64,000 bases of DNA. Origin: Arcobacteraceae bacterium (GTDB lineage: Bacteria > Campylobacterota > Campylobacteria > Campylobacterales > Arcobacteraceae). A program made the position numbers. The DNA lies in NCBI GenBank assembly GCA_048268245.1, contig JBLWVX010000005.1, positions 10,186 to 74,185 of the forward strand. Direction: 5' to 3'. Below, in pieces: positions 21,001 through 24,000 of this stretch. Numbering within the stretch: the stretch's first letter is position 1; the number at the start of each line of letters is the position of its first letter.

Positions 21001-24000
21001 TCCTTCATGGAAGACATGGAGTGATGCAAATAAGTTTTTAATAGGCTAAATTTTGCAAAATCAAATTGAACAGCGAATCTCAAAGGTTAAATCCTCTCTT
21101 ATAATAGAACAACCATATTTTGGCTCAATAGCTTCAAGTCAAAAGGCTGTTTTAAATGAGGATTTAAAAACATATCTTTCAACTAGTAGAAACTTTGAAT
21201 ATAATGATGATTATATAAACTCTTTGAGTGATGAAGAGTTAGGTTTTGTACTCACAAACTCAGCAATGCATCAAGCTTTTTTGCATGATAAAAGAGTTGA
21301 TTCAAGAATGCAATGGCTTTGGGTTTTAGCAACTGATTATGCAATAAATTGTTTATTAGTAAACAATGGCTTAGAACTTCCAGATGGTGTAAACTATGAT
21401 GAAAGATTTGATGATATGAGTGCAGAGGCTATTTATGCTGCACTTGAAAATGAAATAGATGATGATAAACATACTCCTGAACAAGTTTCACAAATAAAGT
21501 TTGAAAAACATCAAGAACAAGAAATAGATGATAATCAAGAAATACAAGATATGCACGAACAGCTTTTAAATAAAGCAAAACTTCAAGGTGATTTACCTCT
21601 AGGAATAGAAATACTTGTACCAAATCTATATGAAGGTAAAATCTCTTGGGAAGATGAACTTTATAACATAATAGAGCAATCAGTAAGGTTTGATTATAAA
21701 TTAATACCTCCAAATAAAAGATATATATCTCAAGGTTTCGCCTTACCTTCACTTCAAGGTACTAAAGCTAAGCTTGTAGTTTGTATAGATAGCTCAGGTT
21801 CTATTGATGGTAAACTTTTATCAAAGTTTTTAGCAGAAGTTGAATCTATAATGAATAGTTTTGAGAACTTTGAGATTGATTTACTTGTAGCTGATGCTAA
21901 GGTACATGAACATCATATTCTATATGCAGGAGATGAATTGTCATATACTTTAAAAGGTGGTGGCGGTACTAACTTTGAAAATACCTTTAAGTATGTTGAT
22001 GAAAATATTGATGAGGTAAATTTACTTTTATATTTTACAGATGGTTTTGGAAAGTTTCCCCAAGAAGAACCCACATATGAGAGTGTTTGGGTTTTAAGTG
22101 AAGACATAGAAGTTCCTTTTGGAAGAAAGCTTCTATTAATCTAATTTTCACATTTTATTTTATTATTATGTTGTAAACAAATTGAAAACAGGTATGTTTT
22201 TTTGCATATGCATAAGTAAAATAAGAGTGAATGAAAAAACAGCTAAAAAAAAGCTATTTTTCAATCCTTTTGCTATAAGTGTTCTCATTTTTAATCTCCT
22301 AGAATGTTCAAAGAAGTGTAGTTCGCGTGTAACTTCTTTTCATTTTAATTCATAGATTAGATTAAAATTGCCAATTGCATTGGTTATAAGCATGTGCAAT
22401 CCGGCTATCTTAAATCTAAGACCCGTGACTTTCCGTCCCTACCTCACGATAGGTTTGGCTATACTAATTTTATGTTATTTTTTATTATAAAAAGCTTACT
22501 TGTGGGAAATATATAGTTTTATTTACTCATTTTCCTTATTAAATCTTTACCTTTTTGTGTTAAATTTGGATAAATCATAAACTCAAAGAATACTTCTTTT
22601 GACTCTTGAAGTGTTTCAAGACTTACATCTTCTATAGTAGAAACAAAGCTTTGCCAATATGCAGTAATAAACCAATGAAGTTTAGCTCTTTTATTTAGAG
22701 AACTTCTATTTAGTTCCTTTAGTAAACCTTCTTTTATAAGATATGTTAAAAGACCTTCTATTTGTTTTATTCTTAACTCTTGATTTTGAGTAAATACTTT
22801 CTTGAAATCTGAATCAACAGCTATTAGAATTGTTGCATCTCTTAGCAAAAATTTATATTCAAAAAACAGTTTTGCATATTGATTAAACATTTCATCCATA
22901 GCTTCAAAAAAGTTTTCATGCATTAACATCTTCTCAAAACTATTTAGTTCAACAAATTTAGAGTTTAATTCTAAATATAAATCAAGAATTATTTCCTTTT
23001 TGTTTTTATAGTGATAGTAGAGATTACCTGGTGATATACTAGCTTCTTTGGCTATGTGGTTTGTAGTAATACTCAATGAATCATTTTCATTGAAAAGTTT
23101 CATTGCACTTTGTTTTATCTTTGTTTTTGCATCTATTCTTTTTTTCATATTTTATTATATCACTTTAGAGCTTTTACTTAATAAATTAGAGTAATTACTC
23201 TAAAATTAAGTTCTATATAAAAATAACTATATTAGAATACATTAAATAACAAGAAAGGTTACATATGGAAGCAAAAGCAGGCGAAGGACTACCTCATATA
23301 GAAAAGAGTATAATCAGGTATATTTTAATACCAATTGTAAGGTTATTGTTGAGTTGGAACTTGGCACTATTTCTTTTAAAAAGAGAAAGAAAAATCATAG
23401 ATAAGTTAACATCTTGTTTAACAAATGAGCAAAAAGAAAAACGAGTTAAAATAAATAGGACTTTTGCTATAGAAGAACATAGTTCTGATTATTCTGTAAA
23501 TATGGCTTGTGAGCATTTATATATAACTGGAAATGCAATCATGAAAGTAATTGATACTTTATCTAAGGAAAGAGAGTACAAAAAAAATATTACAATAGAA
23601 GCTGTAAAACCAACAGGTAAAGATAAAAATGCAGTTTCTAGTTTCTTGTCATTTATGAATCAATATGAAGAGTATATAAAATCTCATAAAAAAAATCAAT
23701 CAAAACAGACAAAAGCACATCCTTGGTTTATAAACTTTAATAACCATGATTGGAGTTGTTTTATGTTTATGCATACATTTATTCATAGAAGACAAATTGA
23801 AGAAATTATAAAAGTTCAAAAGGAAAGAAAATGAGTAATTATACTGGAACACTAATCAGAGTTGGCATGATATTTATATTTTTGATGCTAGTATGGAGTT
23901 TTTTAGCTTTTAGTATATCTTTTTTGATTGCTTTTTTATTTAGTATAAATTATAGTTTATCTATACTTCTTTATAGTTTTGTTGCTATTTTAGTAATAAG

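What a model noticed while it worked through the whole genome (the two positions that open the first line are those of the whole stretch)
22166..22469. c-di-GMP-I riboswitch in front of an uncalled 40-codon membrane-peptide gene
A c-di-GMP-I riboswitch on the minus strand of C5 has no called gene behind it; 100 nt downstream, after a terminator-like hairpin and a strong AGGAGA ribosome-binding site, lies an uncalled 40-codon ORF for a basic-then-hydrophobic peptide. I read it as a c-di-GMP-controlled small membrane protein, kept in two genera, that couples the second messenger directly to a membrane target (a regulator or toxin-like peptide). It would add a small-protein effector arm to c-di-GMP riboswitch regulons, which are known for large adhesins, pili and enzymes.
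Evidence so far: Rfam c-di-GMP-I 62.8 bits, E 6e-12 at C5:32577-32654(-) (rna.tsv, call 3). The next called genes are g00708 on the other strand and the upstream TetR g00709. ORF C5:32473-32351(-): [sequence left out]. A DNA search found riboswitch plus ORF over (nearly) the full length in 3 of 5 congeners (88-94% identity) and in two genomes of another genus (76-77%). In all 5 of these loci an ORF of 33-40 codons starts at about the same distance behind the same GGAGATTAAAAATG. It has 2 to 15 amino-acid changes within the genus and more between genera, but keeps the pattern MR/KT..KG.K.S..L..FS..LI..M. Contigs of two salt-marsh metatranscriptome runs from different studies (X4, X8) each hold a 151-152-nt pi [...]
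(Added by a program. Inside this text positions count along the whole contig: contig position 10,186 is position 1 of the stretch shown here. "Call 12" and the like, gene names such as g00115 and contig names such as C1 are that model's own, and its searches are not shown. The text may have been shortened before it was handed on; [...] marks where a part breaks off. The agent that wrote the report below was given it as the finding of a first reader that could run no searches.)

Follow-up and report, generated by a model that had tools for sequence, protein, structure and literature searches.

The report
c-di-GMP riboswitch controlling a 40-residue membrane peptide
A genuine c-di-GMP-sensing RNA switch sits in front of a real but tiny gene for a 40-residue membrane peptide found in a few Arcobacter-like bacteria; this kind of arrangement was described in another bacterium in 2026, and what the peptide does is still unknown.

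Summary
Rfam places a c-di-GMP-I aptamer at 22392-22469(-) with 62.8 bits. A 40-codon ORF with an AGGAGA ribosome-binding site starts 103 nt downstream.

The ORF is a real gene. It is present, with a ribosome-binding site, in 8 of 184 family genomes. That includes all six genomes of its own genus. Two congeners have lost the aptamer but keep the ORF. That pair shows clear purifying selection: in-frame pN/pS 0.26, Fisher p 5e-7, with no such signal in shifted frames.

The leader folds into a terminator whose 5' arm is the aptamer's 3' strand. This predicts an ON switch. A conserved helix also hides the ribosome-binding site.

The peptide is predicted to be one membrane helix plus a short conserved tail. 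Its function is unknown.

Caveats:
- The copy in the second genus is truncated by a frameshift.
- Selection is not detectable within the riboswitch-bearing clade.
- RNA evidence consists of assembled contigs only, and translation is unproven.

Riboswitch-controlled small membrane proteins were published for C. difficile in 2026 (PMC13724677). This scan has also noted similar units in other phyla. I class this as a new member of a known kind.

The parts
22467..22489 (-). Candidate promoter -10 boxes (TATAAT 22489-22484; TAAAAT 22472-22467) in the 50-nt gap after the TetR stop codon
   Evidence: Read from the sequence. The stretch is conserved in alignments A1 and A3, where G056 and g21 have TATAAT at the second box. 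The consensus promoter scan did not list it. No transcription start has been mapped.
22392..22469 (-). c-di-GMP-I riboswitch aptamer
   Evidence: RF01051, 62.8 bits against gathering 35, model 1-87. It is 89-97% identical across the six riboswitch-bearing loci. P1 pair 11/24 changes CG to UA in one sequence.
22370..22405 (-). Terminator-like hairpin (GCCGG-AUUGCA / UGCAAU-UGGC). Its 5' arm is the 3' strand of the aptamer's second helix.
   Evidence: -9.7 to -13.5 kcal/mol in 6 of 6 leaders and -12.6 in the paralogous G169 DUF1800 leader. Both arms are invariant. The simple terminator scan did not list it because the loop is 14-22 nt and only 4 U follow.
22359..22367 (-). U-tract of the terminator, which doubles as the anti-SD strand (UUUUAAUCU)
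   Evidence: Pairs with 22297-22289 in the free and the aptamer-enforced folds of 6 of 6 leaders. All 9 pairs are invariant.
22310..22339 (-). Inner hairpin of the long SD-sequestering stem (AAAGAAGU / ACUUCUUU)
   Evidence: Present in 6 of 6 leaders although the sequence differs between genera. Pairs 123/172 and 141/158 change on both sides. It is deleted in G056.
22289..22300 (-). Ribosome-binding site AGGAGA (22300-22295) and the SD strand of the anti-SD helix (AGAUUAAAA, 22297-22289)
   Evidence: Invariant in the six riboswitch-bearing loci. G056 and G059 keep a GGGA or AGGA site 6-7 nt before their ATG.
22166..22288 (-). 40-codon gene for a single-helix membrane peptide (MRTLIAKGLKNSFFLAVFSFTLILLMHMQKNIPVFNLFTT)
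   Evidence: ORF. Eight strong orthologs among 184 genomes. Purifying selection between G056 and G059. Predicted helix 2-30 plus helix 34-39. Hydrophobic window 12-28, N-flank charge +3. The identical sequences of relatives are annotated as 'hypothetical protein' at NCBI.
21053..22144 (+). Convergent DUF2201_N/DUF2201 (vWA-like) gene, which a read-through riboswitch transcript would overlap as antisense
   Evidence: Pfam assignment. It is convergent with the small ORF in 7 of 8 loci; G059 has no DUF2201 homolog by this query.
22519..23148 (-). TetR-family regulator directly upstream on the same strand. This is context, not shown to be part of the unit.
   Evidence: Pfam TetR_N and TetR. It is adjacent in the 6 riboswitch-bearing loci of the 30 DUF2201 loci fetched, and absent in G056 and G059.

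Best explanation
This is a self-contained unit: its own promoter, a class I c-di-GMP riboswitch, and a genuine 40-codon gene.

**How the switch most likely works.** Without ligand, the 3' strand of the aptamer's second helix pairs with UGCAAUUGGC. This forms a hairpin followed by a short U-tract, and transcription stops before the gene. With c-di-GMP bound, that strand is held in the aptamer and the polymerase reads on. This makes it an ON switch.

**A second layer.** The U-tract sequence then pairs with the ribosome-binding site and the bases up to the start codon. It forms the base of a long stem, so the full-length mRNA is predicted to be translated poorly.

**The product.** The peptide has a basic N-terminus that should stay in the cytoplasm. 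It has one transmembrane helix (about residues 9-28) and a 12-residue tail with a conserved I-P-hydrophobic pattern on the outside. I take it to be a small inner-membrane protein made when c-di-GMP is high, which modulates a membrane protein or the membrane itself.

**Shown:** the aptamer match, the ORF and its conservation, purifying selection on the protein, and the mutually exclusive structures in silico.

**Inferred:** ligand binding, ON polarity, translation, topology and function.
For: **Aptamer and ligand**
- RF01051 at 62.8 bits against a gathering score of 35.
- The genome has 44 GGDEF-domain matches, so the ligand is made.

**Real gene**
- The peptide profile finds 8 strong loci (E 2e-12 or better) in 184 family genomes: all 6 genomes of genus g1 and 2 of 11 genomes of g21.
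- Each locus has a ribosome-binding site.
- This frame is the only one of six open in all sequences. A rough neutral substitution model gives about 0.0016 for that over four lineages.
- The inter-clade indel near the N-terminus is 3 nt.
- G056 and G059 have no RF01051 match at E up to 1, yet both keep the ORF.
- Between those two genomes, in-frame synonymous differences are 17.5 over 23 sites and nonsynonymous are 18.5 over 94. The ratio is 0.26 and Fisher p is 4.9e-7.
- The +1 frame gives 0.98. The +2 frame gives 0 synonymous and 31 nonsynonymous differences.
- The 15-codon core GIKQSFLLTTFLVMM carries 8 synonymous and 0 nonsynonymous changes.
- Two further short relatives exist among 1.84 billion representative proteins: P0007 (40 aa) and P0009 (34 aa).

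**Switch design**
- The hairpin scores -9.7 to -13.5 kcal/mol in 6 of 6 leaders, and its 5' arm lies inside the aptamer.
- The same design, with a longer U-run, occurs in the paralogous G169 DUF1800 leader (UUUUU) and in sister locus L023 (UUUUUUU).
- The 9-bp anti-SD helix is invariant. The stem above it has 2 compensatory pairs.

**Membrane peptide**
- AlphaFold predicts helix 2-30 and helix 34-39, mean pLDDT 77.
- The best 17-residue window has a mean Kyte-Doolittle hydropathy of about 2.0-2.3. N-flank charge is +2 to +4 in 7 of 8 peptides.

**Precedent**
- C. difficile CD1980.2 family (PMC13724677, sections 7 and 14 read).

**RNA**
- Contigs from two metatranscriptome studies run from inside the aptamer, past the hairpin, to the start codon.
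Against: - There is no evidence of translation and no mapped RNA ends. The RNA data are assembled contigs of read length, and DNA carry-over cannot be excluded.
- Within the riboswitch-bearing clade the ORF is the least conserved segment: 78-84% identity against 88-96% for the linker.
- In that clade the in-frame pN/pS of 0.38-0.87 is no better than in shifted frames.
- In g21 the aptamer is intact, but a 2-nt indel truncates the ORF to 33 codons and removes the conserved tail.
- The hairpin is a weak terminator, with a 14-22-nt loop and only 4 U. The consensus scan lists no terminator in 21900-22700.
- Its arms never vary, so covariation gives no support.
- The SD stays sequestered in the aptamer-enforced fold as well. 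The switch alone would therefore not open translation.
- The flagellin-versus-pilin comparison, meant as a control for ON/OFF polarity, was uninformative.
- No conserved partner gene points to a function.
Confidence: 0.6

Rival explanations
1. The peptide is a toxin-like membrane peptide comparable to type I toxins. It would be kept almost untranslatable by the SD-sequestering stem, released only when c-di-GMP is high, and possibly countered by antisense transcription from the convergent gene.
For: It is a small hydrophobic peptide with a basic N-terminus. A long conserved stem hides the SD and the bases up to the start codon in 6 of 6 leaders. A convergent gene ends 3-76 nt from the ORF's stop in 7 loci, and 17 nt away in G059. 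That type I toxin mRNAs are structured in this way is recalled knowledge and was not tested here.
Against: There is a single copy per genome, present in 6 of 6 genomes of the genus, under purifying selection. That looks more like a housekeeping accessory gene than a patchy, multicopy toxin locus. No dedicated antisense RNA promoter was found. G056 has lost the inner hairpin and most of the anti-SD complementarity but keeps the gene.
Confidence: 0.15
2. The ORF is the leftover signal peptide of a lost secreted-protein gene, and the riboswitch is an orphan.
For: The peptide has a signal-peptide-like layout of a basic stretch followed by a hydrophobic stretch. In G169 a near-identical aptamer, with the same terminator and SD, precedes a DUF1800/DUF1501 pair. 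That protein's signal peptide loosely resembles this peptide, with 7 of 33 residues the same at the same index (my reading of the and 21 output). The convergent gene leaves no room for a longer ORF.
Against: Purifying selection between G056 and G059. A conserved tail (I-P-V/I-x-N/D-L/F) follows the hydrophobic core, and the stop position is conserved in 6 of 8 loci. No protein of 71-2000 aa scored among 2915 candidates. The only long protein in the 1.84-billion search, P0008, matched on an internal repeat (residues 11-31), not as an N-terminal signal peptide. The shared DNA word with the DUF1800 gene start is 1 nt out of frame.
Confidence: 0.07
3. The riboswitch's real output is an antisense RNA against the 3' end of the convergent DUF2201/MoxR operon, and the ORF is incidental.
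For: No terminator lies between the ORF and the convergent gene. The gap is only 21 nt here and 3 nt in G056. In 7 of 8 loci the convergent gene is DUF2201.
Against: G059 keeps the ORF but has no DUF2201 homolog by this query, in a genome that is 95% complete. G056 keeps both the ORF and DUF2201 without the aptamer. 23 of the 30 DUF2201 loci examined have no such unit. Protein-level selection on the ORF is not explained by this rival.
Confidence: 0.07
4. The ORF encodes an exported precursor. The N-terminal 27-30 residues would act as a Sec-type leader, and the conserved 10-12-residue tail would be released as a small extracellular peptide.
For: The peptide has a basic, then hydrophobic, then polar layout, and the tail is the second conserved block.
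Against: I see no A-x-A-type cleavage site in the alignment; this was judged by eye and no predictor was run. The tail is lost in g21 and differs in P0009. No processing, export or receptor gene is conserved next to it.
Confidence: 0.06

Closest known systems
[quoted passage not shown]
   Same: A class I c-di-GMP riboswitch is followed directly by a small, previously unannotated ORF for a membrane-associated protein, with control by premature termination. In both cases some family members lack a riboswitch.
   Different: The C. difficile proteins are 58 aa with a C-terminal helix, occur as 5-8 near-identical paralogs, are repressed by c-di-GMP (OFF) and promote sporulation. Here the peptide is 39-40 aa with a central helix, there is one copy per genome, the predicted polarity is ON, and the host is a non-sporulating Campylobacterota bacterium. 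Sequence homology was not tested because I had no CD1980.2 sequence in hand.
c-di-GMP-I (GEMM-I) riboswitches, Rfam RF01051
   Same: Full-length match above the gathering score, plus an expression platform that overlaps the aptamer's 3' strand.
   Different: Nothing unusual in the aptamer itself. The added, constitutive SD-sequestering helix built from the terminator's U-tract is specific to this leader. It is not seen in the paralogous DUF1800 leader or in L023.
Sister units in the same bacterial family: c-di-GMP-I aptamers before a 51-60-aa 'WSFxKK' class and before Flp-like pilins
   Same: Closely related aptamers (81-97% identical), the same terminator design (L023), and a small membrane protein as the first or only gene.
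   Different: No detectable sequence relation to this peptide: hhalign probability is 0.6% against the WSFxKK class and 0.3% against the Flp-like class.
Type I toxins and small inner-membrane regulators such as MgrB, AcrZ and MgtS (recalled knowledge, not tested here)
   Same: Size, a single hydrophobic helix, and, for the toxins, an mRNA that hides its own ribosome-binding site.
   Different: No antitoxin RNA, no toxicity data and no partner protein are known. No sequence similarity to any Pfam or NCBIfam family.
Earlier notes of this scan on c-di-GMP riboswitches driving micro-peptide genes in Chloroflexota and other phyla (e1-4737470, e1-5212282, e1-935304)
   Same: Riboswitch plus a 29-33-codon hydrophobic ORF as a unit.
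   Different: Different phyla and peptides. Those notes are unchecked AI notes and I did not test them.

Membership tests
c-di-GMP-I riboswitch (RF01051) | Covariance-model score at or above the curated gathering score over the full model | tested here: met
   62.8 bits against 35, model positions 1-87.
c-di-GMP-I riboswitch (RF01051) | Aptamer helices maintained across relatives | tested here: met
   P1 pair 11/24 changes CG to UA. Pairs 14/21 and 15/20 change on one side and stay paired. The second helix is invariant.
c-di-GMP-I riboswitch (RF01051) | Expression platform mutually exclusive with the aptamer | tested here: met
   The terminator's 5' arm, GCCGGAUUGCA, contains the 3' strand of the second helix in 6 of 6 leaders. 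This is in silico only.
c-di-GMP-I riboswitch (RF01051) | Binds c-di-GMP | not testable with these tools
   Needs in-line probing or ITC. The host has 44 GGDEF matches.
CD1980.2-type riboswitch-controlled small membrane proteins (C. difficile) | Gene directly behind a class I c-di-GMP riboswitch | tested here: met
   The ATG is 103 nt after the aptamer's end.
CD1980.2-type riboswitch-controlled small membrane proteins (C. difficile) | Sequence homology to CD1980.2 | not tested
   No CD1980.2 sequence was in hand. The paper reports no homologs outside C. difficile (PMC13724677, section 7).
CD1980.2-type riboswitch-controlled small membrane proteins (C. difficile) | About 58 aa with a C-terminal membrane helix, in several near-identical paralogs | tested here: not met
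   The peptide is 39-40 aa with a hydrophobic window at 12-28. There is one copy per genome.
CD1980.2-type riboswitch-controlled small membrane proteins (C. difficile) | Repressed by c-di-GMP (OFF switch) | tested here: inconclusive
   The structure logic predicts ON. No experiment was done, and the polarity control was uninformative.
Type I toxin | Small hydrophobic peptide whose mRNA sequesters its own SD | tested here: met
   in silico.
Type I toxin | Cis-encoded antisense RNA antitoxin | not tested
   Only a convergent protein gene is present. The promoter scan found one promoter-like site (21944-21917, minus strand) in 21900-22700 and none antisense to the ORF. The RNA data cannot show strand.
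Type I toxin | Toxic when overexpressed | not testable with these tools
   Needs an expression experiment.
Relic signal peptide of a lost gene | Neutral evolution of the remnant | tested here: not met
   pN/pS 0.26, Fisher p 4.9e-7 between G056 and G059.
Relic signal peptide of a lost gene | A longer relative carrying the same N-terminus | tested here: not met
   None among 2915 candidates of 71-2000 aa. None credible among 1.84 billion representatives. Signal peptides diverge fast, so this is weak evidence.

The most novel reading that the evidence does not exclude
In Arcobacter-like Campylobacterota, tiny membrane proteins may be the main output of c-di-GMP riboswitches. At least three unrelated families are involved. 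The first is this 39-40-aa peptide. The second is a 51-60-aa 'WSFxKK' class, with 16 of 17 loci directly behind an aptamer. The third is a set of Flp-like pilins. On this reading, the peptide studied here is a c-di-GMP-induced, translationally throttled, membrane-active effector, either a regulator of a membrane complex or a toxin-like peptide. Its riboswitch control can be gained and lost without losing the gene.
Probability: 0.3. Interest if true: 0.65.

Novelty: new member of a known kind. Interest (0 to 1): 0.42.

Why it matters
- It extends the very recent finding that c-di-GMP riboswitches control small membrane proteins. That was shown in one Firmicute species. Here it appears in a Gram-negative lineage, with an unrelated peptide and probably the opposite polarity.
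- Nature has already run two decoupling experiments. Two species lost the aptamer and kept the gene under selection. Two others kept the aptamer and truncated the gene. This gives ready-made comparators for functional work.
- The genome has 44 GGDEF-domain matches but only two riboswitches, so this peptide is one of only two direct RNA-level outputs of the messenger.
- The gene is missed by annotation in this genome, although identical sequences are annotated as hypothetical proteins in two relatives.

Tried and rejected
**Relation to other small-protein families**
- Relation to the WSFxKK class or the Flp-like pilins: hhalign probability 0.6% and 0.3%. Rejected.
- Pfam, NCBIfam and the ESM Atlas gave nothing for the peptide.

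**Database entries and the opposite strand**
- The 59-60-aa database forms (P0004, P0006) are the g21 ORF read through its TGA stop as W. They are not longer natural forms (compared).
- The 57-aa ORF on the opposite strand (22182-22355, +) has stops in G058 (2) and G056 (1). Rejected.

**Hairpin inside the ORF**
- I considered the hairpin AAAAAUAGCU/AGCUGUUUUU as a terminator that would cut the ORF short.
- It shows changes that keep pairing in G057 and G058 (my reading of alignment A1).
- It is built from Lys (AAA) codons pairing with Phe/Leu (UUU/UUA) codons and is weak, and the coding signal spans it. I treat it as a by-product of codon composition.

**Searches for more copies**
- A protein-based metagenome search failed because the alignment has no sufficiently conserved stretch.
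- The DNA pattern scan gave 12 matches, of which 1 (L091) is a true copy.

**Polarity control**
- Leaders before flagellin (L011, L012) and before pilin (L002, L014) did not show clearly opposite designs. The control is uninformative.

**RNA runs**
- All four runs laid are assembled contigs. Parts of the locus without cover, and depth differences, carry no meaning.
- X1 is only guessed to be RNA. Its record 2 carries an opposite-strand joint at 22285/22370, which I take to be an assembly artefact.

**Not examined further**
- In the peptide profile search, 7 of the 15 genomes with a match had only weak hits (E 1.5e-4 to 0.01). Several lie inside long ORFs or contain stops. I did not examine them and treat them as noise.
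- The same applies to a second weak match in G059 that contains stops.
- An Rfam call on 20 loci at once exceeded the size limit. I searched G056 and G059 singly instead, so the other DUF2201 loci were not scanned for aptamers.
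Full report
**1. Observation**

Rfam finds a full-length c-di-GMP-I aptamer (RF01051) at window 22392-22469 on the minus strand. 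It scores 62.8 bits against a gathering score of 35. The whole-genome search gives the same place.

The genome has only one other such aptamer, on contig C3. It has 44 GGDEF-domain matches, so c-di-GMP is clearly made.

A 40-codon ORF runs 22288..22166(-). It starts 103 nt after the aptamer, and AGGAGA lies 7 nt before its ATG. A TetR gene ends 50 nt upstream of the aptamer on the same strand. A convergent DUF2201/vWA-like gene ends 21 nt from the ORF's stop.

- The 331-nt unit is found over its full length in G055 (95%), G057 (89%) and G058 (88%).
- 249 of the 331 nt are found in G169 and G173 of another genus, at 77% and 76%.
- In total 53 of the 184 family genomes had any match, and most of those matched the aptamer only.

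**2. Is the ORF a gene?**

Within the four close genomes, the ORF is the least conserved segment. It is 78-84% identical, against 88-96% for the linker. Variable columns fall 10/10/17 by codon position. In-frame pN/pS is 0.38-0.87, no better than in shifted frames.

Two further loci settle the question.

- **G056.** A search with the neighbouring DUF2201 protein found homologs in 66 of 184 genomes, and 30 loci were fetched. It showed that G056 carries a 39-codon ORF at the same convergent position. G056 is a more distant congener whose DUF2201 protein is 73% identical.
- **G059.** A profile of the peptides then found an eighth locus in G059. It lies next to rpsJ and convergent with an unrelated oxidoreductase gene.

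So all six genomes of the genus carry the gene, and 2 of 11 genomes of genus g21 do.

G056 has lost 18 nt of the aptamer's first helix, and G059 has lost almost all of the aptamer. Neither gives an RF01051 match at E up to 1.

Between these two genomes the coding signal is clear:

| Frame | Synonymous differences / sites | Nonsynonymous differences / sites | Ratio | Fisher p |
|---|---|---|---|---|
| In frame | 17.5 / 23 | 18.5 / 94 | 0.26 | 4.9e-7 |
| +1 | 5.5 / 16.8 | 22.5 / 70.2 | 0.98 | 0.78 |
| +2 | 0 / 19.2 | 31 / 82.8 | reversed | 0.0006 |

A 15-codon core is identical in protein but carries 8 synonymous changes.

Other support:
- The frame is the only one of six open in all seven sequences tested. 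A rough neutral model gives about 0.0016 for that across four lineages.
- The N-terminal indel between clades is 3 nt.
- All eight loci keep a ribosome-binding site.
- A search of 1.84 billion representative proteins adds two more short relatives, P0007 and P0009.
- The only long protein in that search, P0008, matched on an internal repeat (residues 11-31), not as an N-terminal signal peptide.
- A search restricted to longer proteins found none.
- NCBI annotates the G057 and G058 versions as hypothetical proteins of Arcobacter sp. strains.

I conclude that the ORF is a real gene. It is a small, lineage-restricted family.

**3. What weakens the picture**

- In g21 the aptamer is intact, but a 2-nt indel ends the ORF at codon 33. 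The former C-terminal codons are still readable out of frame.
- The g21 block may be laterally acquired. Its DUF2201 protein is 83% identical to this genome's, more than congener G056's 73%.
- The TetR gene and about 5 kb of further genes lie between the riboswitch and rpsJ only in the riboswitch-bearing genomes.
- RNA evidence is thin. Contigs of 152 and 151 nt from two salt-marsh metatranscriptome studies cover 22284/5-22435, from inside the aptamer, past the hairpins, to the start codon.
- A third RNA-library contig spans 22298-22541, taking in the TetR 3' end. Contigs show neither ends, strand nor level.
- There is no evidence of translation.

**4. Mechanism**

Directly after the aptamer, GCCGG-AUUGCA pairs with UGCAAU-UGGC, at -9.7 to -13.5 kcal/mol in 6 of 6 leaders. 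AAUUUUAAUCU follows. The 5' arm contains the 3' strand of the aptamer's second helix. The ligand-bound aptamer and the hairpin therefore exclude each other, which is the logic of an ON switch.

The same element with longer U-runs stands in two related leaders. One is a paralogous leader in G169, before a DUF1800/DUF1501 pair. The other is sister locus L023.

The hairpin is weak by consensus rules and was not listed by the simple scan. Its arms never vary, so covariation gives no support.

A second layer is specific to this leader. The U-tract UUUUAAUCU pairs with AGAUUAAAA, which is the 3' part of the SD and the bases up to the AUG. This 9-bp helix is invariant. It forms the base of a long stem with an inner hairpin, and that stem shows two compensatory pairs. 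It forms whether or not the aptamer is enforced, so the full-length mRNA is predicted to be poorly translated.

The peptide is predicted as helix 2-30, a break at I-P, and helix 34-39, with mean pLDDT 77. It has a hydrophobic window at 12-28 and a positively charged N-flank. That suggests an N-in, single-pass inner-membrane peptide.

No partner gene is conserved across the eight loci. The function therefore remains an inference: a small membrane modulator made at high c-di-GMP.

**5. Rivals**

- **Toxin-like peptide (type I style).** This fits the hidden SD and the convergent transcription. It does not fit the single-copy, genus-wide distribution under purifying selection.
- **Relic signal peptide.** This fits the shape of the peptide and the paralogous DUF1800 leader. 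It is contradicted by the selection signal, the conserved tail and the lack of longer relatives.
- **Pure antisense role against DUF2201.** This is contradicted by G059, which keeps the ORF but has no DUF2201 homolog by this query, and by G056, which keeps the gene without the aptamer.
- **Secreted tail peptide.** This lacks a visible cleavage site and any processing genes.

**6. Comparison with what is known**

A paper of October 2026 describes 58-aa membrane-associated proteins of C. difficile behind five class I c-di-GMP riboswitches. They are repressed by c-di-GMP through premature termination and promote sporulation. Some paralogs lack riboswitches (PMC13724677; abstract and sections 7 and 14 read).

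The present unit is the same kind of arrangement, with these differences:
- an unrelated, shorter peptide;
- one copy per genome;
- probably ON polarity;
- a different phylum.

Two full-text searches found no report of such units in Arcobacter or its relatives.
- held 44 papers with at least two of the three terms, of which 15 were listed.
- One search found one paper with all three terms (PMC6429828; passages read). It is not about this.

Earlier unchecked notes of this scan describe riboswitch-driven micro-peptides in other phyla.

**7. Context noticed on the way**

I examined 25 other aptamer loci of this family. What follows the aptamer:

| Downstream gene | Loci |
|---|---|
| 51-60-aa ORF with an invariant W, a near-invariant S-F-x-K and a C-terminal hydrophobic helix ('WSFxKK') | 14 |
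| Flp-like pilin | 7 |
| Flagellin | 2 |
| 79-aa membrane protein | 1 |
| Cut by a contig end | 1 |

The WSFxKK class occurs in 16 of 184 genomes, in 6 of 22 genera. 16 of its 17 loci have an aptamer of the c-di-GMP-I clan directly upstream. It has no Pfam or NCBIfam family. Small membrane proteins thus seem to be the usual cargo of these riboswitches in this lineage.

**8. Verdict**

The control logic is plausible but untested, and the function is unknown. The concept is no longer new, so this is a new member of a known kind. Interest is moderate.

Noticed in passing
Loci L009, L010, L013, L015-L017, L020-L023, L025, L028, L030, L032 (alignment A5); also L109, L110: A 51-60-aa ORF class has an invariant W, a near-invariant S-F-x-K and a C-terminal hydrophobic helix. 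It occurs in 16 of 184 family genomes (6 of 22 genera). 16 of its 17 loci lie directly behind an aptamer of the c-di-GMP-I clan. It has no Pfam or NCBIfam family. Its architecture resembles the C. difficile CD1980.2 family, but homology was not tested.
   Followed up: partly
G000 contig C3:49299-49374(+), locus L002 1501-2330: The genome's only other c-di-GMP-I riboswitch precedes a 64-aa Flp-like pilin gene and a Peptidase_A24 prepilin peptidase gene. The same pairing occurs in L014, L019 and L031.
   Followed up: partly
L033 2747-5834(-) (G169): An aptamer 97% identical to this one, with the same terminator element and SD, precedes a DUF1800 (534 aa) and DUF1501 (444 aa) gene pair. It lies 4 kb from the small-ORF locus. 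This genome lacks that pair at the corresponding place.
   Followed up: partly
L110 1724-1801(-) (G144): The aptamer before one WSFxKK gene scores best as the variant family c-di-GMP-I-GGC (RF03167, 67.1 bits against a gathering score of 59). Its ligand specificity may differ.
   Followed up: no
window 22519-27418: A block of about 5 kb lies between the riboswitch and rpsJ (27419-27730) in this genome. It holds TetR, a 189-aa protein, a 67-aa membrane ORF, a 396-aa zinc-ribbon membrane protein and two more genes. In G056 and G059, rpsJ lies directly next to the small ORF.
   Followed up: partly
window 18694-22144(+): Three genes form an operon-like triad that is syntenic in G169: a 449-aa protein with no Pfam family, a MoxR-type AAA+ ATPase, and a DUF2201_N/DUF2201 vWA-like protein. 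I did not test that.
   Followed up: no
Proteins P0004 and P0006: Public metagenome gene calls of 59-60 aa are the g21 version of the ORF read through its TGA stop as tryptophan. This looks like an annotation artefact from the wrong genetic code (compared).
   Followed up: yes
G059 contig C51:10084-10188(+), locus L081: A second, weak match to the peptide profile (E 0.0018) contains two stop codons. It may be a decayed second copy.
   Followed up: no
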